Source: a virus. From it: a stretch of DNA of 13,616 nt. Of the stretch, positions 1-11,213 are shown one piece after another (the first letter of the stretch is position 1; each line of letters opens with the position of its first letter). The notes beneath the pieces were generated by a model. It made no database searches. It saw only the letters and a program-made list of their open reading frames with translations, and was not told the DNA's origin. Position numbers and translations under genes: made by a program. The stretch is taken from UHGV virus genome UHGV-0269933. One strand, 5' to 3'.

Positions 1-25
1 TACTAATCAGTTAAGTGTTTGTTTT

Positions 26-63
26 AAAAGGCGCTACTCGGCATGGGGAAGCGCCTTTTTTAT
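26..63 (+). repeat. attL-type direct repeat (38 bp), also a Rho-independent terminator hairpin
   Basis: aaaaggcgctactcggcatggggaagcgccttttttat is identical to 11239..11276. GGCGCT...AGCGCC stem followed by a T-run. Confidence 0.8.
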
Positions 64-68
64 TAAAT

Positions 69-90
69 TGACTGCACCACTGACTGCACC
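69..90 (+). repeat. Tandem arm-type repeats TGACTGCACC(AC)TGACTGCACC, putative integrase arm sites (P' arm)
   Basis: Tandem 12-bp period repeat immediately inside the left att core. Near-identical tandem repeat at 11045..11068 in the same orientation. Confidence 0.55.
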
Positions 91-115
91 GATACACGAA
101 CTATAGCGAACGGCG

Positions 116-145
116 TTGAACGAAATCACCAACTAATCGTAATAT
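116..145 (+). promoter_or_regulatory. Sigma70-like promoter for the Abi-like gene (TTGAAC-N18-TAATAT)
   Basis: -35 TTGAAC at 116..121 and -10 TAATAT at 140..145. SD AAGGGG at 164..169 upstream of ATG 180. Confidence 0.4.
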
Positions 146-170
146 GATAAACCTCTACATATGAAGGGGT

Positions 171-944
171 ATGGTGTACATGAAGTCTATTCTTGATGAA
201 CTTAGTACTGATATTGAGCGCGCTGAAAGTCTACAGTCCCAGCTGATTAGCGTAGCTACTGGCGGACCTGCGTTACCATATGAATATCAGGAGCTAAGAC
301 GTTTTTTTGTTGAATCACCACTATATAGCAACATTATTCCCTCTTTCGTAAAAACAAACCGCAACACCGACCAATTTTGGCAATTTATTAAATACAAATT
401 TGGTACATATGCTGAAAGAAGGCAGTACATTTGGGATGAATTCCAAGAATTGATGGACTATCTGGAGGGTAAAAACAAAGCACCCGCAGATGAGGACATC
501 TCTGATGTATTAAGACGGTTTGATGAGGATGGTGTTCACACCGTGTGGATGAAAGCACTAGAACGGCGCCACACAGACCCGGATGGGGCGATAACCTCTG
601 CAAGAACACTTCTAGAAACGGTTTGCAAGCACATTCTTGATGATATGGATGTCCCCTATAATAATAAAAATATAGAAATGTCAGAGCTTTATAAAATACT
701 ATCAAAAGAACTTAACTTATCTGCCGACCAGCATACTGAAAGTATTTTCAAACAAATTCTTGGTGGTTGTTCAGCCGTTGTAAATGGGCTAGGTACTCTT
801 CGTAATAAACTTGGTGACGCACATGGAAAGAATCGCTCATCAGTTAAACCATCACCAAGGCATGCAGAACTCGCTGTAAATTTATCAGGCTCAATGGCTC
901 TTTTTCTAATTAGCTCATGGTTAAACCTTAAAGATAAAAATTAA
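171..944 (+). CDS. Abortive-infection family protein (Abi_C-like C-terminal domain); likely true start ATG at 180
   Basis: 257-aa ORF. C-terminal LGTLRNKLGDAHGK motif after a TLLETVCKHIL helix resembles the Abi_C family signature (from memory). AT-rich relative to flanks, own promoter and SD. Confidence 0.55.
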   Translation: MVYMKSILDELSTDIERAESLQSQLISVATGGPALPYEYQELRRFFVESPLYSNIIPSFVKTNRNTDQFWQFIKYKFGTYAERRQYIWDEFQELMDYLEGKNKAPADEDISDVLRRFDEDGVHTVWMKALERRHTDPDGAITSARTLLETVCKHILDDMDVPYNNKNIEMSELYKILSKELNLSADQHTESIFKQILGGCSAVVNGLGTLRNKLGDAHGKNRSSVKPSPRHAELAVNLSGSMALFLISSWLNLKDKN

Positions 945-969
945 TGAACTATGGACGTGATATGACCAA

Positions 970-1227
970 TTAGTTAATCATTATGTTCATCGGTTTAAGC
1001 TGTTTCTGGCTGTTCACCAGCCAATCTTGCATGTATTTGCACCAGGTACTGAACATCGCCTCATCAGTGCCTGGATAGGTGTACAGATACCCCATAAGGA
1101 CTTTATCGGTAATCTCATCCTCTTGATCCCAACCAATGATGAATTGACGAAATAGGCCGTATGATTTAGCCGGATCCGTATTCCTCCACGTTTCCACTAC
1201 TACATCGAATGCCGGAACCCTGAATGT
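970..1227 (-). pseudogene. 3' remnant of an unknown gene truncated by the IS66-family element
   Basis: Track ORF 970..1293; its N-terminal 22 aa are translation of the IS terminal repeat. Only the C-terminal ~85 aa (RVPAFDVVVETWRNTDPAKSYGLFRQF...) lie outside the IS. No start codon or SD. Confidence 0.35.
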
Positions 1228-2001
1228 GTAAGCGTGCAGTGAGAACCGTATTGACGAAGTGAAGCTGGTCAGGCAGGCAGAGTAACCCGCCACGGGAGCA
1301 GAGCACCCACCCGGTTCACAGGCCAGTCGGCGATGACATCAAGTACATAATGCAGATAGCGTTCCGGATCCACGCCGTTTAATTTGCACGTCCCGATAAG
1401 ACTGTACAGTGACGCACCGCGCTCACCACCATGATCCGAGCCGAAGAACAGCCAGTTTTTTCTCCCCAGACTGACCCGTCGTAGGGCGTTTTCGGCAATG
1501 TTATTATCCACCTCCACCCAGCCATCTTCTGCATAGCGGATCAGCGCCGGCCACTGGTTCAGCGCATACCCGAACGCCTTCGCCAGTTCTGAGTGCCTTG
1601 AGAGGGTTTTCTGTTTCTCCCGCAGCCACCCCTCCAGTGACGCCAGCAGCGGCAGCACTTTTTGGTGCCGGACTGCCTGCCGTTCCTCTGCTCTTTTACC
1701 TCTGATCTCCGACTCGATGGCATACAGCTCGCCGATCCGTTTCAGCGCCTCTTGCGAATGTCTGTCCTCTGGCTTTACTGGTGTTCATGTATTTTTCAAA
1801 GCCGGGGAGTGTAACTGACAGCGCTCGAAATACCTCTCGCGGTGTGCTAATCACTCGCTGGTGCTCCCGGCCAAATAATCTGATCAGAGGACCACTCAGT
1901 TTGATAGTTGTCATGACTTCTGCACATGGATTCATAGCCGCCTCAGTTAATTTTGGAGAAAGGAAACGGTTAGGCTTTTTTTAGCTCAAAATAGCGCTTA
2001 C
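1228..2001 (-). mobile_element. Internally deleted IS66-family insertion sequence remnant (~0.77 kb)
   Basis: GTAAGCG-type terminal sequences at both ends (1228 on +, 2001 on -). Contains the C-terminal ~170 aa of an IS66 TnpC-like transposase. No matching 8-bp target-site duplication (ctgaatgt vs catttcct). Confidence 0.7.
1269..1783 (-). pseudogene. IS66-family transposase (TnpC) C-terminal fragment
   Basis: Translation ...ALKRIGELYAIESEIRG...LAKAFGYALNQWPALIRYAEDGWVEVDNNIAENALRRVSLGRKNWLFFGSDHGGERGASLYSLIGTCKLNGVDPERYL...LLPW matches the conserved TnpC C-terminus. In-frame stop lies upstream at ~1786; N-terminal two-thirds absent. Confidence 0.8.
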
Positions 2002-2161
2002 CATTTCCTTTCTTTTTAGATGGTGTTTTCATTAAAAACATATAGTTACATCGAAGAAGAACAGAAACGGCAAATCGCAGAAAATTTTCATAAATAGCAA
2101 GAATCTGCGAGGTCGCCGCCCCGTAGCAGGCCGAATTGCCCGAAAGGACCCGCGCCGAAAT

Positions 2162-2268
2162 CGCTCAAACTTCAATCGGCCGAGTTTTCGAGGCGTTAAA
2201 GAGTAGATATGGGAATATCACATATGTAAAAACCAGCCGCGCTCAAACTTCAATCGGCCGAGTTTTCG
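2162..2268. repeat. Pair of perfect 29-bp direct repeats (2162..2190, 2240..2268) with embedded 9-bp-stem hairpin in second copy
   Basis: cgctcaaacttcaatcggccgagttttcg occurs twice, 78 bp apart. Second copy extends into aatcggccg-agtttt-cggccgatt inverted repeat. Confidence 0.6.
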
Positions 2269-2307
2269 GCCGATTACCAGGTCCGCCGGGTCATTCGGGC
2301 CTGTCGG

Positions 2308-2694
2308 TCAGCCAATCAACGTGCTTTTCCCGCCGCGAGCCTGCTGGCGCACACGCTCGGCCTTAAGGCAAAGAGATGCTTCAGGCTTAGCAGGTACAGG
2401 AACATGGCAGGTTTCAGAGGTCCGGGGAATGTTATTGATCCATTCAATAACTTCACTCAGATACCACGCCTTGCGCCCCTCAGTGACCTGGACGCGTACT
2501 GGAAACTCACCTCGCGCTTCGAGATTCAGCAATGTACGGCGGCTCAGCGTGGTGAGTTCTATGACCTGATTCATATCAACCAGGCGCTCACTGACGTTCA
2601 TTTTGTCTGCCATCTCCAGCAGTTCACCCACCACTGGATCCGGATAGAGAGCATTGGCGGTGGCCATCAGGCTGTTATTTTTATCTTGCATCAT
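2308..2694 (-). CDS. AlpA/Vis-family HTH DNA-binding protein (second copy, with N- and C-terminal extensions)
   Basis: Core MNQVIELTTLSRRTLLNLEARGEFPVRVQVTEGRKAWYLSEVIEWIN fits the phage AlpA/excisionase-type HTH pattern. Start ATGATG at 2694/2691 with AAGGAG SD; the 144-aa track ORF start is an unsupported upstream extension. Confidence 0.55.
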   Translation of the reverse strand: MMQDKNNSLMATANALYPDPVVGELLEMADKMNVSERLVDMNQVIELTTLSRRTLLNLEARGEFPVRVQVTEGRKAWYLSEVIEWINNIPRTSETCHVPVPAKPEASLCLKAERVRQQARGGKSTLIG

Positions 2695-2701
2695 AATCTC
2701 C

Positions 2702-3043
2702 TTACACCAGTGCCAGTGGCTGAACAGAAATACCAGAGCCAACGAACGCTGCTACTTTTGCAGAAAGCGTGGTTACATCATCAGGCCAGTTAAGGGCATC
2801 AACATTCAGCACGCCAGCTTTGTAGACCTGAGCATGTGTCTGGCTTGCGGTATCAACAGCAAAGCAAGATACATAGACAGCCTGCCCGGCATGCGCCCCA
2901 TCCCAGACCACCAAAGCCCCATTGGTAGCATCCTGCATAAGTGGAGTCAGCGCGGGAATAACGCCCTTTGCTCCAGCGAAGATACCCAGAGTTGTCACCA
3001 GCGCTTCAGTACCGGCCGCCAGTTCAGTGTAATGCGTCGTCAT
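2702..3043 (-). CDS. Phage head decoration protein, lambda gpD-like
   Basis: 113 aa; ALTPLMQDATNGALVVWDG...VYKAG...AAFVGSGISV aligns with lambda gpD (AMTPLMLDTSSRKLVAWDG...FYKSG...TAFAGTAISIV). AAGGAG SD; translationally coupled to upstream capsid gene. Confidence 0.75.
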   Translation of the reverse strand: MTTHYTELAAGTEALVTTLGIFAGAKGVIPALTPLMQDATNGALVVWDGAHAGQAVYVSCFAVDTASQTHAQVYKAGVLNVDALNWPDDVTTLSAKVAAFVGSGISVQPLALV

Positions 3044-3052
3044 GATTACTCC

Positions 3053-4093
3053 TTAGGCCACGCGAACGGTGACAAAACGGTTGATACGGGCCGGGATAGG
3101 CTGCGGTGCGGAGTGGGTCTGAACGTACTCAATAGCTGGGTCGCCAGGAACAATGTAGTTCTTTGGCGCCAGCTCAGCTTTGGTAATACCCATACGGATG
3201 AGCTCTGGATCCTGAATTCCGCCGTAGGCCACAATGCCCTGCAGGGCGGTGTTTCCCAGCACCATCAAATCAGGATCGAGGAAGTGCTTTTCGGTGCCGT
3301 CTTCGTCGGTATAGCGACCGCTATAAACCACAATAGCCACATCGCCCATATAGCCTTTAAAGCTCACTGAATCGCCCAGGTCTTTAAGTGCTGTTTCAAG
3401 CTGTGCGTTGGAGCCGCGGCGCGTGTCGAGTACATCTTTAATCGCTTTGAAAGAACGATATTTTTTCCAGACGTTCCCGCCCATAATGATGATATTGGTT
3501 ACGCCTTCACTCAGCTCTGAATAGGTTTCAATATCGTCATTTGGATCAAACGTCGTTTTATCTTTACCTGACCAGGCAGCGCCACCAGCCTGAGTGATTA
3601 TATTCTGGGATTTGATATTCCAGTCCAGCTCATAACGCTCGATCCCTTCCCCCTCAATAATATTTTTCCCGGTAGTTACAGCCTGAACAGCCAGCCATTC
3701 AATACGCGCACGAATAGCAATAGACTGTTTGAGGATTGACTGTTTTACCTTGATATTGCGGGTATCAAGCGTGCTGTATTGATCAGGAGTAACACCAGCA
3801 GGACGAACAGCCAGTTTGTTAGGGTCAATGTTGCTCTTTGGTTTCATGTAGCCAGGACGGATAGACTTGGACTCATATCCCTCATCACGCGCCACCTTAC
3901 TACCCACCATAGGCGAACAGAACGCCGCGATTGGAATATTTGGGTCGTCGATAGTGTCCAGGATGATATCGCGCGTTTCAAAAGTAACTGCGCGGGTAAA
4001 GAATAAATCAGTGAACAGGGTTTTTAGTTGCTTCTGAATATCCTCAGCGCTAACAACCCGAACCAGCGCCGCAGGTGAATATAAATCTGGCAT
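3053..4093 (-). CDS. Major capsid protein, lambda gpE-like
   Basis: 346 aa, full-length collinear similarity to lambda gpE (341 aa): PGYMKPK..., ITQAGGAAWSGKDKTTFDPNDDIETY..., FRSFKAIKDVLDTRRGSNAQLETALKDLG...YMGDVAIVVYSG...MVLGNT...YGGIQD...GDPA... SD GAGG upstream of ATG. Confidence 0.9.
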   Translation of the reverse strand: MPDLYSPAALVRVVSAEDIQKQLKTLFTDLFFTRAVTFETRDIILDTIDDPNIPIAAFCSPMVGSKVARDEGYESKSIRPGYMKPKSNIDPNKLAVRPAGVTPDQYSTLDTRNIKVKQSILKQSIAIRARIEWLAVQAVTTGKNIIEGEGIERYELDWNIKSQNIITQAGGAAWSGKDKTTFDPNDDIETYSELSEGVTNIIIMGGNVWKKYRSFKAIKDVLDTRRGSNAQLETALKDLGDSVSFKGYMGDVAIVVYSGRYTDEDGTEKHFLDPDLMVLGNTALQGIVAYGGIQDPELIRMGITKAELAPKNYIVPGDPAIEYVQTHSAPQPIPARINRFVTVRVA

Positions 4094-4301
4094 ATATTAC
4101 CTCAGTAAAATAAATAGAGCGTTCATCACAAAAATAATGTTAACACTGACAAACACAGAATGATTGAATGCAATGATGTGCAATAGAGTGCAATAATGTA
4201 TAAAGTTAATTCACGGTGATATGGCCCGCTAAATATCTGTTAATGTCCTCACTGTTATTTCCTCCAAATAACATCGTTCGTTAAAAATCCATGTTTTCCC
4301 A

Positions 4302-4331
4302 AGCGGGTCTGGTTGCAGCCCGCTTTTTTTT
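4302..4331 (+). terminator. Rho-independent terminator on + strand (hairpin + T8) with no annotated + strand gene upstream
   Basis: agcgggtctggttgcagcccgct stem-loop followed by tttttttt. Lies in the leader region upstream of the capsid gene. Confidence 0.45.
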
Positions 4332-4366
4332 CGTCTTTCGCAAAATTATGGATCGGCAAAATGAGT

Positions 4367-4646
4367 GGTGAAAATCACCCTACCCACAGCTTTAAAATTA
4401 AAAAATATCCTTTTAAGTGTTCACCCGTTCACCTTTGCGAATTTCTTAATTAAATTCATGTAGTTATAGGGTGAATACTACTCTTTCAGGTATTCACTAG
4501 TGTTCACCCTACCCTTCACCCTTTAGGGCAAAAAACAATCAAAAGGTGAACAGGTGAATACTTGGTGAATACTTAATAAATAAGTGTCCACCCCTTAACA
4601 CTCTGTTATTAATAGAATTTTAAACAGGGTGAATACTGGTGAACAC
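4367..4646. repeat. Iteron cluster of P4 ori/crr type (TGTTCACC / GTATTCACC), ~12 copies in both orientations
   Basis: TGTTCACC at 4418, 4426, 4501; GGTGAACA/GGTGAATAC at 4470, 4545, 4553, 4564, 4628, 4638; variants at 4490, 4513, 4585; GGTGAAAATCACC palindrome at 4367. Matches the P4 type I iteron motif bound by alpha (recalled). Confidence 0.7.
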
Positions 4647-4659
4647 TTTATCTATAACT

Positions 4660-5361
4660 TTACTCTACCCCTTCATTCTCAGTAGTGATTGCACATGATG
4701 GCATCCAGTCGCCAGAATCATCATGCAGGGTTACGTTAGAGCGTATGCCATGTTTGGTTTTCCGCTTCTGGTATTCCTTCCCATACTCAACCATTGCGCC
4801 AGGCATATCTGTACCGAACCGCATCAGTGAGACAGGCTTACTCAGGCCATTGGCTCTCATGTATGCCAGATAGGCGTGATACAGGTACTTGCGCGGGCTG
4901 AATGGCACTATCTCGGCATTACCGATAAACATCCCGTCACACACTACCGACGCCATCAGGTAGCCGCAGAAGTCCACCAGCGAATCACCTTCACGCTTGA
5001 TCGCCAGAGCCTCCTCTGATTTCTGCTGCTCATACAATAACCGTCTGGCTTCGTCCTGGTCTGCAAAACGTGTAAGCAGATGGCGGATAACTACAGCCAG
5101 TTCCCCTTCTATTTTCTCTGCCAGCATCGAGTCTCGCTCGTTTTCTGGTACAACCTCCGAGAAATTGAAAATAACCCGGCGCCGCGAAATCCCCCCGCTA
5201 CGGTCGCTGAATGTCATAGCATTGTTGTTTACCGCCAGCACCACCGCCGGAATACGGGTTGAATATGGTGCTTTATGTTTAGGATCGATAGACACCTTGT
5301 CACCACCAGTTATGGCCTTAATACCTGCACCATCGCCAGCGTACCGGGTCATATCAGGCAT
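4660..5361 (-). CDS. P4 alpha-type primase/helicase C-terminal (iteron-binding) domain homolog, stand-alone/truncated
   Basis: 233 aa beginning near the SF3-helicase arginine-finger region (AVVLAVNNNAMTFSDRSGGISRRRVIFNF). No Walker A/B or primase domain. Located immediately upstream of the TGTTCACC iterons, as the alpha 3' end is in P4. Confidence 0.55.
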   Translation of the reverse strand: MPDMTRYAGDGAGIKAITGGDKVSIDPKHKAPYSTRIPAVVLAVNNNAMTFSDRSGGISRRRVIFNFSEVVPENERDSMLAEKIEGELAVVIRHLLTRFADQDEARRLLYEQQKSEEALAIKREGDSLVDFCGYLMASVVCDGMFIGNAEIVPFSPRKYLYHAYLAYMRANGLSKPVSLMRFGTDMPGAMVEYGKEYQKRKTKHGIRSNVTLHDDSGDWMPSCAITTENEGVE

Positions 5362-5427
5362 AATGATCGTAATGTTCCTTTATTTCATGAATCGTAATAG
5401 GCATAAATTCTCCTTGTTTGTCTAACC

Positions 5428-7572: not shown

Positions 7573-7750
7573 TGAGCGCTCCCGTTTCATTCTGCTCCAC
7601 CATGCTTGCCGCAAGTTGATCCGATACTCGTCTGGCCAGACTGATAAGGTTTTCACGCTCAACCTGATCAACGTCGTACTCTTCGACAACCATCAACAAC
7701 GCAGCCAGTTCACAGGCTATTGACGCACTTTTATTGGTTAATTCACGCAT
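7565..7750 (-). CDS. Hypothetical small protein (61 aa)
   Basis: Start ATG at 7750 in ATGCGTGA overlap with upstream gene stop. Track ORF 7565..7912 is an upstream extension in another gene's sequence. Confidence 0.5.
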
Positions 7751-8012
7751 GGCGCACCTCCTGAATAGCTGCGCTATCGAACTCCCAGCCACGGCGGGTG
7801 GTGTAATCGAAAAACGCAACGCGACAAGGAGACTGGGCGCGGATTTTGGCAGCGAAAACCAAATCCCAGCCGGGGAATGCAGAGCGGGCTTTATCTTCCG
7901 TATCAGCATCAAAGCGGAGCACTACAGGTGTGCATTTTGGGGTGTGGTCTGGGGTTGCCAGGAATAACCATGTAAATTCCGGGCGAGTTTGGGTATGCTG
8001 TTGATCAGCCAT
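7743..8012 (-). CDS. Hypothetical protein (89 aa), first gene of replication operon
   Basis: Start ATG at 8012 with GGAG SD ([13 protein letters not shown]...). The 318-aa track ORF 7743..8699 upstream of this Met is low-complexity, Cys/Arg/Ser-rich non-coding translation. Confidence 0.55.
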
Positions 8013-8139
8013 AACTGTTACTCCGATTAACGGTTTGGTTAGACGCCCTGGTACTGCTCTAACAGTCCGGGGCGTTGCTTTTTGGTATGCACCTGCCATA
8101 CACTTGATTACCATTTCAAAGTAATCAGGTGTCAACCAA

Positions 8140-8319
8140 ATGTCAACCATAGAAATTAAAGCCAAAGGTAACAAGCAGATCGCATTACGCGTAGAACCAA
8201 ACCTAGAAGAAGGAATTAAACAGGCTCTGGCGCAAGATGGTGACGCTTCTGTATCAGCATGGATAAAGCGAATAATCCGCAAAGAGTTACAGCAGCGAGG
8301 CATTGAGCCGAAAAGCTGA
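8140..8319 (+). CDS. Small ribbon-helix-helix-like DNA-binding protein (59 aa), candidate island regulator/repressor; absent from ORF track
   Basis: ATG 8140 with AGGTG SD 9 nt upstream; stop TGA 8317..8319. KQIALRVEP strand plus two amphipathic helices fits Arc/MetJ/CopG topology. Divergent from the replication operon across a 127-bp region. Confidence 0.5.
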
Positions 8320-8499
8320 TACCCAAAATCTGGGTAACGGTCGAAACTACGGGAATTCTCCGGGGTATGCTGCATTGCAGTACACCCGGCACTCTGTTCC
8401 AGTTCTCCCCAGATTTGGGGAAATGGGGTATGCGCCAATGCCGTACACCCTAAACAGCCCAATTTCTGGGTAGTTTCACGTAACCGCGCCATTGACACA

Positions 8500-8519
8500 G
8501 TTCCTGTAATTACAGGAAC
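8500..8519. promoter_or_regulatory. 20-bp perfect palindrome GTTCCTGTAATTACAGGAAC adjacent to TTGACA; candidate operator
   Basis: Perfect dyad symmetry. TTGACA hexamer at 8492..8497 immediately upstream. Confidence 0.45.
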
Positions 8520-8588
8520 GCTCAGGCTTTGACCACCAGCATTAACCCTGGTATCCTGACTTTGCTTAATTTTTTGGTAGTGACATTG

Positions 8589-8616
8589 GCGGCCCGGCAT
8601 GGCCGCTTTTGTTTTA
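8589..8616 (+). terminator. Rho-independent terminator on + strand
   Basis: gcggcc-cggcat-ggccgc hairpin followed by ttttgtttta; ~270 nt downstream of the RHH gene stop. Confidence 0.55.
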
Positions 8617-8634
8617 TGTGACATTCCCCACCCC

Positions 8635-8844
8635 TCACGCTGCTTTGCTGCGGCTCTGCTGCCATGCTGTGACCTCAGAAAGAAGCCAACCAACGGCACG
8701 ACCTCCCAGCTTACGGCGGGCGGGAAAGCTCCCCTCTTTTTCCATCATGTATCGAGTGGTTCGACAAATACCGGTTAGCTGTCGGCACTCAGCCTCACGG
8801 ATAACTCTTTCTGCTGGCTGCTGGGATTGTTTAATATTGTTCAT
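8635..8844 (-). CDS. alpA: AlpA-family transcriptional regulator (prophage CP4-57-type)
   Basis: 69 aa from MNNIKQ; ...[43 protein letters not shown] is the AlpA HTH signature. The longer 81-aa reading would translate through a hairpin and has no SD. Confidence 0.75.
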
Positions 8845-8880
8845 AAAAAAATGCTCTCGTTCGCTAAGGTTCGAGAGCAT
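8845..8880 (-). terminator. Terminator-like hairpin with 9-bp perfect stem directly abutting the alpA start codon
   Basis: On the - strand, atgctctcg-aaccttagcgaa-cgagagcat followed by ttttttt then ATG of alpA. The 3' arm contains the only SD-like GAGAG. Confidence 0.45.
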
Positions 8881-8959
8881 TGTTATTCAACAAAATTATC
8901 ACCGCGACGGTGAGAAAAAAATTATATTCCTCTAAAGGAGTTACCCTTATTCAGTTATA

Positions 8960-9802
8960 TCAAGATAATTCTTTCCTGATTTTATCTAAAGAATCACTTC
9001 TTATGATTTTATCCAAGAAAGGTTTTACCGTTTGAGCTATGGCAAAGGACTCCTTTTCTCCATCCGGGAACAGGGATACTGCGAGTACGCCAAGAGATAT
9101 TTTGCTGTCGGTAGCGCTTTCCCATGACATCAAATCAATAAGTGGAATTATTCTGTAGTCAATTATTTTCCGTCTGACGCTCTCCCAGTCCCCTGAGACT
9201 GGCTTATCTGGTTCAGGTATTCCGAGTTCTTCGCGCCATTTTGGGAGGAGGTTCGTGAATGCTTCAATCAAAAGATCATCTCTGTTGTTTAAGTCAACAG
9301 TAATCATCACGTTTTCCACAACATCAGAAAGTAAGTTTACTGGCTCGCGCATGATAGCCCAAAACATACCGTTATCTGCTGTAAACAAATCCCCCACCAA
9401 ATCATCGTCAACTACTATTGGCTTTCCTTTCCAGTGACCTTTATCAGCATTGATTTTATTTAAAAATGCCAACTCAAATCTCATTAATGGTTTTATACCA
9501 TCGCCGTAACTTAATTTTAGCAAATCAGGCTGAGTCTTGTACTCGTATTCCTTTTGCTTTTCAAGAAACCATTCTTCTGCTTTGAGTTCCCCGAATGGAT
9601 CACCAAAATTATTGTTAAGCGGGTATTTAGCACCATATTGCAAACCATAGTCAGGGCAGTCTGTATTTTTTATTGCTAAATCATCGCATCGCCAATAGAG
9701 CTGACGAAACAAATCCTTATCAGACATATTTTCAAGGTCATCATATTTTTCCAAGCTGAATGACTTTGGTAAGTCTCTTTTACTGTTAATTTTTTTTGTC
9801 AT
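8960..9802 (-). CDS. Hypothetical protein (280 aa), AT-rich cargo gene translationally coupled to integrase; function unknown
   Basis: ATG overlaps the integrase stop codon (ATGA). Markedly lower GC than neighbours; acidic, Lys/Asp/Glu-rich; no motif recognised. Confidence 0.6.
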   Translation of the reverse strand: MTKKINSKRDLPKSFSLEKYDDLENMSDKDLFRQLYWRCDDLAIKNTDCPDYGLQYGAKYPLNNNFGDPFGELKAEEWFLEKQKEYEYKTQPDLLKLSYGDGIKPLMRFELAFLNKINADKGHWKGKPIVVDDDLVGDLFTADNGMFWAIMREPVNLLSDVVENVMITVDLNNRDDLLIEAFTNLLPKWREELGIPEPDKPVSGDWESVRRKIIDYRIIPLIDLMSWESATDSKISLGVLAVSLFPDGEKESFAIAQTVKPFLDKIIRSDSLDKIRKELS

Positions 9803-11022
9803 CTTGCGACCTCAAGAATAGTAACATTTGAGATATCAGAGGTAATAACCTCTAATCTCTGCATCCATTTATTCAGTGCATCCAGCTTTTCAGGTAAATA
9901 CTGACTGCGGTTATATACGGACATGACACCGCCCAGCGCATGGCCCAGAAGCTGCTCGACAACATGCGGAGCAATTCCCATGTTGTTCAGAGTCGTGGAA
10001 AACGTACGGCGTAGATCGTGAAGCGTCCACGGTTCAGAGTGGCCCAGACGCTTATACAACATCCTTCCCCACTGACTGACAGCTTCCGGTTTCTTTATCT
10101 CTCCAAGCAAAAGCCCTGTGCTTTGGTGCTGCTCTAAGAGCTGTTTGATAAATGGGCGGATATCTACGGGAATAGGACGTAGTATTTTCTCACCACCTTT
10201 GCTGTGCTCTTTAGGTACAGTCCAAACCCAATCACTTAGATCCCATTCGGTTACGCGAGACAATCTCAACTCCTGAGTTCGGCACCCAAACACTACTAGC
10301 AGACGTAGCAGCGAGGAGTAGTAGGGCTTGAATTTCAAGCCTGAACACTCCCGCCATATATCAGCCAGTTCTTGCCGGGTATGTTCCCTGTCCCGTTTAT
10401 TCTGTTTACGTCCAACATCATCAATGGTCAGATCGTCCAGGACATTACTCACCGCGTACCGATGAACACGGCAGAACTTGAGGGCTTGCTTACACATTTG
10501 CAGAAGATAGCCAGCAGCTACAGGAGCCTCATCTCTCACCCTGCTGAAACACTCCAGCCAGTGGCGGGTTTCGCACATAGAGAGGGGAAACGCCCCAATA
10601 TATGGGTAGATATGCTTATTGAGCTGTTCTATATGCTTTTCTACATTAGCCCGTTTATGAGATGCATATTCCCTTATCCAGTATTCAAGTGCCTCTTTTA
10701 CAGTTACCGGCTTAAGTGTTTCCTGTGTGGTGACAGTTAACTGGTGTTTCGGGTTCTTCCCCTCAGCAAGCCAGGCACGACATTGATCTCGCTTTGCCCT
10801 CGCGGCCTTAAGTGAAAGATCGGGATAGTTACCTAACTTCAAACGCTGAGGGGCAGTACTGCGTCCACCAATACGGTATGTAAAATACCAGGTCATTATG
10901 CCTATCTTTGACACCTTTACGCTCAGGCCATCACCATCAGCGTAAAAGCTATCACCGGGGCTTTCCCTCCCAACCATCTTGCGGAGCGATGTATCGCTTA
11001 ACTTGTTCGTTCCACCAGCCAT
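9799..11022 (-). CDS. int: Site-specific tyrosine recombinase, P4-type integrase (Arm-binding N-domain + catalytic domain)
   Basis: 407 aa. N-terminal ...DGDGLSVKVSKIGIMTWYFTYRIGG...LKLGNYPDLSLKAARAKRD arm-binding pattern. C-terminal HDLRRTFST...LGHALGGVMSVYNRSQY catalytic motifs, similar to P4 Int. GAGG SD. Confidence 0.9.
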   Translation of the reverse strand: MAGGTNKLSDTSLRKMVGRESPGDSFYADGDGLSVKVSKIGIMTWYFTYRIGGRSTAPQRLKLGNYPDLSLKAARAKRDQCRAWLAEGKNPKHQLTVTTQETLKPVTVKEALEYWIREYASHKRANVEKHIEQLNKHIYPYIGAFPLSMCETRHWLECFSRVRDEAPVAAGYLLQMCKQALKFCRVHRYAVSNVLDDLTIDDVGRKQNKRDREHTRQELADIWRECSGLKFKPYYSSLLRLLVVFGCRTQELRLSRVTEWDLSDWVWTVPKEHSKGGEKILRPIPVDIRPFIKQLLEQHQSTGLLLGEIKKPEAVSQWGRMLYKRLGHSEPWTLHDLRRTFSTTLNNMGIAPHVVEQLLGHALGGVMSVYNRSQYLPEKLDALNKWMQRLEVITSDISNVTILEVAR

Positions 11023-11195: not shown

Positions 11196-11213
11196 AAATA
11201 CGGCATGAACTAA
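11196..11213 (+). other. fis: Last six codons of fis (K-Y-G-M-N-stop) at the island/chromosome junction
   Basis: aaa tac ggc atg aac taa encodes the conserved Fis C-terminus. Stop lies 85 bp upstream of the yhdJ ATG. Sequence upstream is integrase leader, not fis. Confidence 0.5.

What the first reader, a model, noticed from the sequence alone, without database searches (positions are those of the whole stretch)
8960..9802. AT-rich 280-aa gene of unknown function translationally coupled to the integrase: candidate hotspot cargo (anti-phage or helper-interference)
Its ATG overlaps the integrase stop (ATGA), so it is co-expressed with int. Composition is clearly more AT-rich than flanking island genes, implying separate acquisition. 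It sits between int and alpA, where P4-like and PICI-like satellites are reported to carry variable defence cargo. A terminator-like hairpin follows before alpA. I recognise no domain; this is the best candidate for an undescribed function in the window.
Basis: partly seen in the sequence, partly recalled or inferred. Interest (0 to 1): 0.7.

Follow-up and report, generated by a model that had tools for sequence, protein, structure and literature searches.

The report
Integrase-overlapping DUF6387 gene of a satellite
The gene is real, but it belongs to a large uncharacterised protein family (DUF6387) that sits between the integrase and the AlpA switch gene of phage satellites and related islands, so it is more likely a partner of the cut-and-paste machinery than anti-phage cargo.

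Summary
There is an intact 280-aa ORF at 8960-9802 (-), and its ATG overlaps the integrase stop (ATGA). It is 38.6% GC against 48-54% for its neighbours, and a small hairpin lies before alpA. The protein does have a known domain, Pfam DUF6387 (E=6e-30), from a family of at least 1,235 clusters. In all 23 informative loci I examined, from Enterobacterales to marine bacteria, the gene lies directly after a tyrosine integrase, directly before an AlpA/HTH_17 gene, or both. The downstream replication modules differ between these loci. The ATGA overlap and the AT-richness are traits of the family, not signs of recent acquisition. The slot is variable in E. coli fis-integrated islands: unrelated proteins or nothing. 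However, a second slot family is just as slot-specific and overlaps int in the same way. The closest precedent is 'iolg', the integrase-overlapping gene of Vibrio PICMI satellites, which use the same fis site. Deleting iolg abolishes excision. The best reading (about 0.5) is an integrase-coupled cofactor of AlpA-dependent excision or integration. Defence cargo (about 0.25) is not excluded. A pLDDT-94 model has no solved structural relative. This is a new member of a known kind, of moderate interest.

The parts
8960..9802 (-). DUF6387-family gene (280 aa), an integrase-overlapping gene of the 'iolg' type
   Evidence: ORF. Pfam PF19924 E=5.9e-30. 44 close and at least 1,235 distant homologue clusters. 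AF2 model pLDDT 94. dN/dS 0.08-0.20 in homologue pairs.
9799..9802 (-). ATGA overlap: int stop (TGA) and DUF6387 start (ATG)
   Evidence: The same 4-nt overlap is found in 12 of 16 int-DUF6387 loci (11 of 15 tabulated, plus L013; L025 and L163 were not tabulated there). It is also found in the unrelated slot genes of L002, L003, L091, L154 and L156.
9810..9813 (-). GAGG Shine-Dalgarno, 7 nt upstream of the DUF6387 ATG, inside the int coding sequence
   Evidence: Read from the sequence.
9799..11022 (-). Tyrosine integrase (407 aa; Arm-DNA-bind_3 + Phage_int_M + Phage_integrase), fis-3'-end specific
   Evidence: Its 3' ~500 nt belong to the same near-identical block as DUF6387 and alpA, while its 5' half is only 73-82% identical to relatives.
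8899..8913 (-).
   Evidence: It lies inside the exchangeable cassette and is not conserved in distant loci.
8845..8881 (-). Conserved covarying hairpin plus U-tract, immediately 5' of the likely alpA start (ATG 8844)
   Evidence: 13 pairs, 95.7% of cells paired, 7 pairs with compensatory changes, 0/500 shuffles as high. Present whatever gene fills the slot (L002).
8635..8844 (-). alpA (Phage_AlpA family regulator/excisionase). The longest ORF begins at 8880; RefSeq relatives use the start equivalent to 8844
   Evidence: E=8.6e-16; 70-aa annotation in L001.
11199..11213 (+). attR core TACGGCATGAACTAA, a duplicated 3' end of fis
   Evidence: The same core lies ~180 nt upstream of int in 14 related loci, and forms attP in the circular record CP018459.1. 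It is identical to the PICMI direct repeat.

Best explanation
The gene encodes a DUF6387 protein that belongs to the integration/excision module (int - DUF6387 - alpA) of a fis-integrating phage satellite. It is not cargo.

Shown here: it is translated from the int transcript, with an ATGA overlap and its own SD, so it is made whenever Int is made. A hairpin and U-tract separate it from alpA. It is inherited as one block with alpA and the catalytic half of int.

Inferred: by analogy with the position-equivalent 'integrase-overlapping gene' (iolg) of PICMI115, the protein acts as a constitutive partner of Int. Once the helper phage switches AlpA on, it is needed to assemble or direct the excisive (and perhaps the integrative) recombination complex at the att site. 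The conserved N-terminal motif (LPKxFxLxKY...SDKDLFRQLYWR) and the C-terminal helical domain (residues ~170-280, with D223/L224/W227 invariant or nearly so) would be the parts that contact Int, AlpA or DNA. The less conserved middle (~45-165) would give subtype specificity.
For: (1) Synteny over great distance. All 23 informative loci place DUF6387 directly downstream of a tyrosine integrase and/or directly upstream of an AlpA/HTH_17 gene on the same strand, and 17 show both. They come from Enterobacter, Klebsiella, Providencia, Yersinia, Tenebrionibacter, Winslowiella, Citrobacter, E. coli/E. albertii, Pasteurellaceae, Neptunomonas, Oceanospirillum-like and TARA marine contigs, at 99% down to ~25% identity. 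The downstream modules differ: RepA helicase, D5 primase, Toprim+DUF3987, P4-alpha-like.
(2) The 4-nt ATGA overlap with int is kept in 12 of 16 int-DUF6387 loci, even at 40% protein identity.
(3) The linkage block shared with relatives is alpA + DUF6387 + the int 3' half (97-100% identity), whereas the int 5' half is 73-82% identical.
(4) Literature. In PICMI115 (same fis site, same direct repeat) the ATGA-overlapping gene between int and alpA is required for helper-induced excision, packaging and transduction. 21 of 35 PICMI subfamilies have such a gene, in 13 sequence families (PMC10803314). [quoted passage not shown] A Serratia island also has DUF6387 directly upstream of alpA.
(5) Absent from other contexts: 2 weak hits in 50,697 phage records. 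In 72,556 plasmids there is a weak C-terminal hit to an annotated DUF6387 in an E. coli plasmid, plus one excised circular copy of this same satellite.
(6) A second, non-homologous slot family (L002 type) is just as slot-specific and also overlaps int by 4 nt in Serratia, in a metagenome and (adjacent rather than overlapping) in Providencia. The slot therefore holds dedicated families, not general cargo.
(7) Purifying selection, dN/dS 0.08-0.20.
Against: - No homology to PICMI115 IOLG could be tested, because no sequences were obtainable. The link is positional only.
- In the PICMI study, the iolg deletion was complemented only with int+iolg together, so a cis or polar effect on int is not formally excluded.
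- The gene is dispensable for the island type. A near-isogenic island (AlpA and RepA ~99% identical) carries an unrelated protein instead. Some fis islands, and 3 of 35 PICMI subfamilies, have nothing between int and alpA.
- DUF6387 diverges much faster than its partners, or is swapped between subtypes: Int 86% and AlpA 86% against DUF6387 42% in L147.
- My locus sample is biased. Most loci were found through DUF6387 itself, which tests where the family sits, not how often the slot holds it.
Confidence: 0.5

Rival explanations
1. Accessory cargo in a recombination hotspot. The protein would be a single-gene anti-phage, anti-defence or helper-interference factor, expressed constitutively from the int transcript in the integrated state or at entry.
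For: - The slot is variable among close relatives, with cassette-like boundaries exactly at the int stop and the alpA leader.
- The gene is rare in E. coli: 5 of 5,426 complete genomes carry this subtype.
- AT-rich, moron-like composition.
- Deep subtype diversity and tandem paralogues in Providencia and a marine contig.
- An acidic protein made together with Int at entry would suit an anti-restriction or anti-defence role (inference).
Against: - No PADLOC hit and no fold match to any known defence or anti-defence protein.
- The family is never seen away from int/alpA in 23 informative loci, and is practically absent from phages and plasmids. Mobile defence genes usually appear in many contexts.
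- AT-richness and ATGA coupling are family-wide and old.
- It is a conserved backbone gene in EARL islands.
- In PICMIs the identified defence hotspot is elsewhere (prim-fis), while the int-overlapping gene is an excision gene.
- This window has a better defence candidate at its other end, the AbiJ-like gene at 171-944.
Confidence: 0.25
2. Regulator or sensor of the alpA switch. The protein would be made with Int in the quiescent island and keep alpA, or AlpA-dependent excision, off (or licensed) until it meets a helper-phage product. This would be a Gram-negative functional analogue of the SaPI Stl repressor, with the variable middle region setting helper specificity.
For: - It always lies immediately upstream of alpA.
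- It has conserved ends and a variable middle, with distinct subtypes on near-identical Int/AlpA backbones.
- Whether Gram-negative PICIs have a global repressor is reported as unclear, and the phage inducer of alpA as unidentified (PMC6092414).
Against: - The protein is acidic.
- Profile comparison with AlpA-type HTH proteins is negative.
- In PICMI115, alpA expression alone triggers excision with iolg present, and the iolg deletion abolishes rather than derepresses excision.
- Many functional-looking islands lack any slot gene.
- There is no divergent-promoter architecture like stl/str.
Confidence: 0.12
3. Non-functional remnant or mis-called ORF.
For: The left half of this island is visibly degraded, with an IS66-family fragment and a truncated D5 primase.
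Against: - The ORF is full length relative to homologues.
- P(open by chance) is 6e-10.
- Strong Pfam match.
- 98-99% identical in E. coli, Enterobacter and Klebsiella copies.
- dN/dS is well below 1 in the family.
Confidence: 0.01

Closest known systems
iolg ('integrase overlapping gene') of PICMI115 and other Vibrionaceae PICMI satellites (Barcia-Cruz et al. 2024, PMC10803314)
   Same: - It lies between int and alpA on the same strand.
- The ATGA overlap with the int stop is the same.
- The element integrates at the 3' end of fis, with the same core (AATACGGCATGAACTAA; window 11197-11213).
- Function is unknown by sequence.
- The slot holds many unrelated families or is occasionally empty.
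   Different: - Sequence relationship is untested. PICMI IOLGs fall in 13 families, and I could not obtain any sequence.
- The host element here is an ~11-kb enterobacterial island of cf-PICI type (RepA helicase, capsid gene), not a 5-7-kb minimalist Vibrio satellite.
- The excision requirement is shown only for PICMI115.
The 'conserved gene of unknown function' next to the RDF in EARL (ROD21-like) genomic islands, e.g. KPNJ2_RS09320 of ICEKp258.2 (PMC10763509)
   Same: Same Pfam family (annotated DUF6387). It lies directly upstream of the AlpA-family RDF on the same strand, at the island end next to the att site. It is a conserved backbone gene.
   Different: In EARL islands the integrase is at the opposite end of the integrated island, so there is no translational coupling to int. 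Those islands are conjugation-related, not phage satellites. The gene has not been studied experimentally there either.
Recombination directionality factors (Xis/AlpA/TorI/Vis family)
   Same: Encoded next to int, and expected to act in the excisive complex.
   Different: RDFs are small (60-100 aa), basic, winged-helix proteins. DUF6387 is 280 aa, acidic and mostly helical. It shows no profile similarity to AlpA and no solved structural relative. It accompanies an RDF rather than replacing it.
Defence hotspots of satellites (P4 psu-int hotspot; PICI accessory regions; PICMI prim-fis hotspot)
   Same: Adjacent to int. The slot content is exchanged between otherwise similar islands.
   Different: Occupants of those hotspots are recognisable defence systems that are also found elsewhere. 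DUF6387 and the L002-type family are found only in this slot, are coupled to int, and match no defence model.
SaPI Stl master repressors
   Same: Encoded next to int. Highly diverse between related islands. Proposed here only as an analogy for the sensor reading.
   Different: Stl proteins are HTH repressors transcribed divergently from the excision/replication operon. No such architecture or DNA-binding evidence exists here.

Membership tests
Pfam DUF6387 (PF19924) | Whole-protein score above the curated gathering threshold of the family HMM | tested here: met
   105.1 bits against a cutoff of 28.9, E=5.9e-30. All 44 close homologues carry PF19924. RefSeq names the 98%-identical copies 'DUF6387 family protein'.
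iolg class (integrase-overlapping gene, PICMI paper) | Start codon overlaps the 3' end of int by 1, 4 or 13 nt (ATGA typical) | tested here: met
   ATGA at 9799-9802.
iolg class (integrase-overlapping gene, PICMI paper) | Located between int and alpA, same strand, in an element integrated at the fis 3' end | tested here: met
   Gene order int 9799-11022, gene 8960-9802, alpA 8635-8844, all on the - strand. fis-tail core at 11199-11213.
iolg class (integrase-overlapping gene, PICMI paper) | Sequence membership in one of the 13 IOLG/ICG families (e.g. IOLGd = VCHA34P115_150119) | not testable with these tools
   The supplement holds only locus tags. Searches seeded with PICMI115 AlpA returned no PICMI locus.
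iolg class (integrase-overlapping gene, PICMI paper) | Required for helper-induced excision | not testable with these tools
   This needs genetics. It is shown only for PICMI115.
PICMI satellite (the element, not the gene) | Minimal 5-7-kb element with int, alpA, DUF3987/DUF5906 primase and no capsid or packaging genes | tested here: not met
   The island is about 11.2 kb. It has a RepA-type AAA_25 helicase, a Phage_cap_E capsid gene and other genes. Close relatives are cf-PICI-like, with HK97 capsid, portal, protease and terminase.
Known anti-phage defence systems (PADLOC-DB v2) | Match to any defence-protein HMM | tested here: not met
   No hit at E<=0.1. The three other slot occupants are also negative.
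Xis/AlpA-type recombination directionality factors | Small winged-helix (HTH_17/Phage_AlpA) DNA-binding domain | tested here: not met

The most novel reading that the evidence does not exclude
DUF6387 and the other unrelated, slot-specific 'integrase-overlapping' families would be interchangeable licensing subunits of the Int-AlpA excision switch. Their conserved ends would dock on Int or AlpA, and the variable middle would recognise a helper-phage (or host) factor. The slot cassette would then decide which phages can mobilise the satellite, as the Gram-negative counterpart of Stl diversity in SaPIs. This would be built on a protein fold with no solved relative.
Probability: 0.12. Interest if true: 0.8.

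Novelty: new member of a known kind. Interest (0 to 1): 0.45.

Why it matters
AlpA-controlled satellites (PICIs, cf-PICIs, P4-like elements, PICMIs) and EARL islands move virulence, defence and resistance genes among Enterobacterales. How Int and AlpA assemble an excision complex, and how the helper phage triggers it, is still open (PMC10803314, PMC6092414).

If DUF6387 is a third, integrase-coupled component, then a family of more than a thousand clusters with a previously unseen fold gains a testable role. The observation made on one Vibrio satellite would extend to clinically relevant E. coli, Klebsiella and Enterobacter islands, including near-identical copies in three genera. If it is instead cargo, it would be a new single-gene function with an unusually strict genomic address. 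Either way, the experiment is simple and the gene is small.

Tried and rejected
- Remote homology of DUF6387 gave nothing. A 27-sequence profile against PDB sequences had a best E of 1.2. NCBIfam found nothing. PHROGs returned only an unknown-function family. PADLOC found nothing.
- I tested whether the other slot occupants are hidden DUF6387 relatives. BLASTP and hhalign were all negative. One shared D-L-x-x-W stretch between DUF6387 and the L002 family (16 columns, probability 1.4%) is not significant.
- I tested whether either slot family contains an AlpA/Xis-like HTH. The result was negative.
- I tried to obtain PICMI IOLG sequences and failed. The supplement has locus tags only. PICMI115 AlpA used as bait in viral and metagenome contigs returned unrelated loci without int/iolg. 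A deep alignment could not seed a viral-contig scan.
- A profile search of the 5.8-billion protein set added few new members and no Vibrio names.
- Rfam scan of the window: no family.
- I rejected 'AT-richness means recent acquisition', because the bias is family-wide.
- I rejected 'strong diversifying selection', because dN/dS is 0.08-0.20, including in the middle region.

Full report
1. THE OBSERVATION

The window contains an open reading frame at 8960..9802 on the minus strand (280 aa, ATG). The 407-aa integrase ORF occupies 9799..11022 on the same strand. The four shared bases read ATGA on the minus strand, so the start of the downstream gene overlaps the integrase stop. A GAGG lies 7 nt upstream of the ATG (9810-9813).

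With the region's own base composition, 280 codons stay open with probability 6e-10. In 2000 shuffles the longest open run averaged 77 codons and never exceeded 169.

The gene is 38.6% GC (GC3 37.7%). Neighbouring genes are richer: int 48.4%, alpA 51.6%, repA 53.9%.

A small terminator-like hairpin (8913..8899, TCACCGTCGCGGTGA plus a T-rich tail) lies in the 79-nt spacer before alpA. All descriptive points are therefore correct. The exception is 'no domain': the product is a clear member of Pfam DUF6387 (105 bits, cutoff 28.9).

2. THE ELEMENT

The right flank is yhdJ-acrS. The 15-nt core TACGGCATGAACTAA at 11199-11213 is a duplicate of the fis 3' end, which is found in 5,423 of 5,426 complete E. 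coli genomes. The island is therefore integrated at fis.

On the minus strand the gene order is:
- int
- DUF6387
- alpA
- an Icd-like gene
- two small ORFs
- a RepA-type AAA_25 helicase
- a truncated D5-type primase
- a lambda-E-type capsid gene

A small YlcI/YnfO-like gene lies on the opposite strand. An AbiJ-like gene sits at the far left.

Close relatives are capsid-forming PICI-like elements in E. coli, Enterobacter soli and Klebsiella. One of them is deposited as a 16,971-bp circular 'plasmid' that carries the attP core.

3. WHERE THE FAMILY LIVES

A full HMMER scan of 1.84 billion cluster representatives found 1,235 clusters at E<=1e-3 and 403 at E<=1e-10. I examined the neighbourhood of every member for which flanks were available:
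- Ten genome loci.
- Seven distant representatives looked up in assemblies.
- Four IMG/VR contigs that surfaced in a search for the fis core.

In all 23 informative loci the gene lies directly downstream of a tyrosine integrase and/or directly upstream of an AlpA/HTH_17 gene on the same strand. Seventeen loci show both. This holds from 99% down to about 25% identity, in Enterobacterales, Pasteurellaceae, Neptunomonas, an Oceanospirillum-related cluster and TARA marine contigs. It holds at two different attachment sites, fis and the proA-side site.

The modules that follow differ: RepA helicase, D5 primase, Toprim+DUF3987, P4-alpha-like primase. The 4-nt overlap with int is kept in 12 of 16 int-DUF6387 loci, including members only 40% identical. 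Two loci carry tandem paralogues.

The family is practically absent from 50,697 phage records. In 72,556 plasmids the only full-length copy is the excised satellite, alongside one weak C-terminal hit to an annotated DUF6387 in an E. coli plasmid.

Two papers list a DUF6387 gene directly upstream of alpA in other island types. [quoted passage not shown]

4. IS THE SLOT VARIABLE?

Yes. Only 5 of 5,426 complete E. coli genomes carry this subtype, while 154 carry a detectable relative of the integrase. In sampled fis islands the int-alpA slot holds one of the following:
- DUF6387.
- An unrelated 270-aa protein (4-nt overlap).
- An unrelated 245-aa protein (4-nt overlap).
- An unrelated 309-aa protein (no overlap).
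- Nothing.

None of the others resembles DUF6387 by BLASTP or profile-profile comparison, and none has a Pfam or PADLOC match.

Against island L002, AlpA and RepA are ~99% identical. Nucleotide homology stops at 8881 (the alpA leader) and resumes at 9799 (the int stop). The exchanged unit is therefore exactly the slot.

The 270-aa family is itself strictly slot-bound. Homologues 35-57% identical, in Serratia, Providencia and a metagenome, again lie between int and alpA. Two of the three overlap int by 4 nt. The slot therefore holds several dedicated families rather than general cargo.

5. COMPOSITION AND EVOLUTION

DUF6387 genes are AT-richer than their own integrase in all ten other loci tested, for example 36.8 vs 55.3%, 32.1 vs 48.6% and 28.7 vs 35.8%. 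The bias is a family trait and says nothing about recent acquisition here.

Between this window and its three nearest relatives, identity is 97-100% from alpA through DUF6387 into the 3' ~500 nt of int. It falls to 73-82% in the 5' half of int. DUF6387 is thus inherited as a block with alpA and the catalytic half of int.

Across loci, DUF6387 distances correlate with Int and AlpA distances (Spearman 0.72 and 0.78). The pairs are not independent, so the p-values mean little. The protein is far more diverged than its partners: Int 86% and AlpA 86% against DUF6387 42% in L147. This points to old subtypes exchanged by recombination.

Two pairs of intermediate divergence give dN/dS of 0.08 and 0.20, with no excess in the middle region.

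6. THE PROTEIN

The protein is acidic, with pI 4.8 against a family median of 5.4. Alignments show three regions:
- A conserved N-terminal motif (LPKxFxLxKY..L..SDKDLFRQLYWR).
- A variable middle (~45-165).
- A conserved C-terminal region.

Across 144 diverse members D223 is invariant, and F15, Y20, R38, D175, L186, R190, L224, W227 and P246 are nearly so.

7. THE CLOSEST PRECEDENT

PICMI115 of Vibrio chagasii integrates at the fis 3' end with the direct repeat AATACGGCATGAACTAA. It has a gene overlapping int by ATGA, between int and alpA, named iolg. Its deletion abolishes helper-induced excision, packaging and transduction. Expression of int/iolg restores excision, and alpA expression alone triggers it. 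The authors propose that Int and IOLG are constitutive, that AlpA is phage-induced, and that the three act together in excision.

Of 35 PICMI subfamilies, 21 have an iolg (ATGA in 14), 4 have a contiguous gene and 3 have none. These genes form 13 families of unknown function (PMC10803314). This is the same picture I find in Enterobacterales. I found no later paper on iolg.

I could not obtain any IOLG sequence, so homology is untested. The published complementation used int and iolg together, so a cis effect is not formally excluded.

8. EXPLANATION AND RIVALS

The best-supported reading (about 0.5) is an integrase-coupled cofactor of AlpA-dependent excision or integration.
- Shown: the coupling, the synteny, the linkage block, purifying selection and absence from other contexts.
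- Inferred: the molecular role, which rests on the PICMI analogy.

Against it:
- The gene can be replaced or absent.
- It evolves faster than Int and AlpA.
- It has no recognisable DNA-binding or recombinase-related fold.

Rival 1 is defence or anti-defence cargo (about 0.25). It draws on slot variability, rarity, AT-richness and paralogues. There is no positive evidence for it, and the strict genomic address argues against it.

Rival 2 is a regulator or sensor of alpA (about 0.12). It draws on position, weak HTH-like hits and the open question of how helper phages switch alpA on (PMC6092414). PICMI genetics points the other way.

9. VERDICT

The finding is real, but the gene is neither domain-less nor evidently cargo. 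It is a member of DUF6387. This analysis places that family in the 'integrase-overlapping gene' class, across cf-PICI-like, P4-like and EARL islands. I rate it a new member of a known kind. Interest is moderate (0.45): the family is large, the fold has no solved relative, the role is unknown, and the decisive experiment is easy.

Noticed in passing
window 8845-8881 (-), just 5' of the likely alpA start at 8844: A hairpin (AAUGCUCUCG..CGAGAGCAUU) with a U-tract is conserved with compensatory changes in 9 distinct loci: 13 pairs, 95.7% of cells paired, 7 pairs changed on both sides, 0/500 shuffles as high. It is present whatever gene fills the slot. Another alpA clade (L004, L011, L115) has a different hairpin that buries the GGAGG just before the ATG. 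No sigma-70-like site was found on the - strand between int and alpA. The element could be an attenuator or an RBS-sequestering structure, and so a route by which a helper phage turns alpA on (antitermination). No Rfam family matches.
   Followed up: partly
window 171-944 (+): An AbiJ-like protein (Pfam Abi_C E=8e-22; PADLOC AbiJ E=1e-20) sits at the island's left end next to attL. It is a more credible anti-phage cargo gene than the finding itself.
   Followed up: partly
window 1-5400: The left half of the island looks chimeric or degraded. It holds an IS66-family transposase fragment (1269-1658, -), a second AlpA-like ORF (2308-2742, -), a lambda-E-type major capsid gene (3053-4093, -) with a small ORF downstream (2702-3043), and a truncated D5-type primase C-terminus (4660-5361, -) beside an intact RepA helicase. 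Relatives carry an HK97-type capsid module instead. Window 1-92 matches the DNA next to the attP core of the circular relative, so attL lies just off the left edge.
   Followed up: partly
L017 = CP018459.1 (K. pneumoniae 'plasmid' pKp_Goe_795-4, 16,971 bp circular): This record is an excised, circular cf-PICI-like satellite with the attP core at 10599-10609. It encodes a DUF6387 protein 98.6% identical to the window's. Near-identical int-DUF6387-alpA blocks occur in E. coli, Enterobacter soli and K. pneumoniae, so the element crosses genera.
   Followed up: partly
window 10350-10950 (int 5' half) versus 8550-10350: There is a recombination breakpoint inside int. The catalytic 3' half travels with DUF6387 and alpA (97-100% identity to L001, L007, L017). 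The arm- and core-binding 5' half and the att-proximal DNA are only 73-89% identical.
   Followed up: yes
L008 6007-7684 (Providencia) and L018 1583-3330 (TARA marine contig): Two DUF6387 paralogues lie in tandem between int and alpA. In L018 the second overlaps the first by 4 nt.
   Followed up: no
L002 5192-6004, L152-L156 (second slot family, 266-281 aa): An unrelated family with no Pfam, PADLOC or PDB match occupies the same slot with the same 4-nt overlap, in E. coli, Enterobacter, Dickeya, Serratia, Kluyvera, Salmonella and Providencia. Its invariant N-terminal stretch (EDLLHWAEIG) resembles the invariant DLxxW of DUF6387, but not significantly.
   Followed up: partly
L031 (E. coli K-12 CP4-57, 2757644-2758600): In the island where AlpA was first described, the intA-alpA slot holds yfjH (318 aa, unknown function, phrog_19089) on the opposite strand. 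It is not related to DUF6387 (hhalign probability 0.3%).
   Followed up: partly
window 8320-8634: A ~315-nt stretch without a credible gene lies between the YlcI/YnfO-like gene (8140-8319, +) and alpA. It contains a terminator-like site on the + strand (8588-8607). Part of it (8400-8550) is only 56% identical to L001, although both flanks are 97-99% identical. The 318-aa ORF 7743-8699 (-) that spans it is probably spurious beyond the 89-aa Icd-like part.
   Followed up: no
literature: ROD21 (PMC8844411): Deleting the AlpA-type RDF SEN1998 changed ROD21 excision only slightly. The neighbouring last gene of the island, SEN1999, has not been characterised. I did not verify that SEN1999 is a DUF6387 member; the ICEKp258.2 counterpart is.
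   Followed up: no
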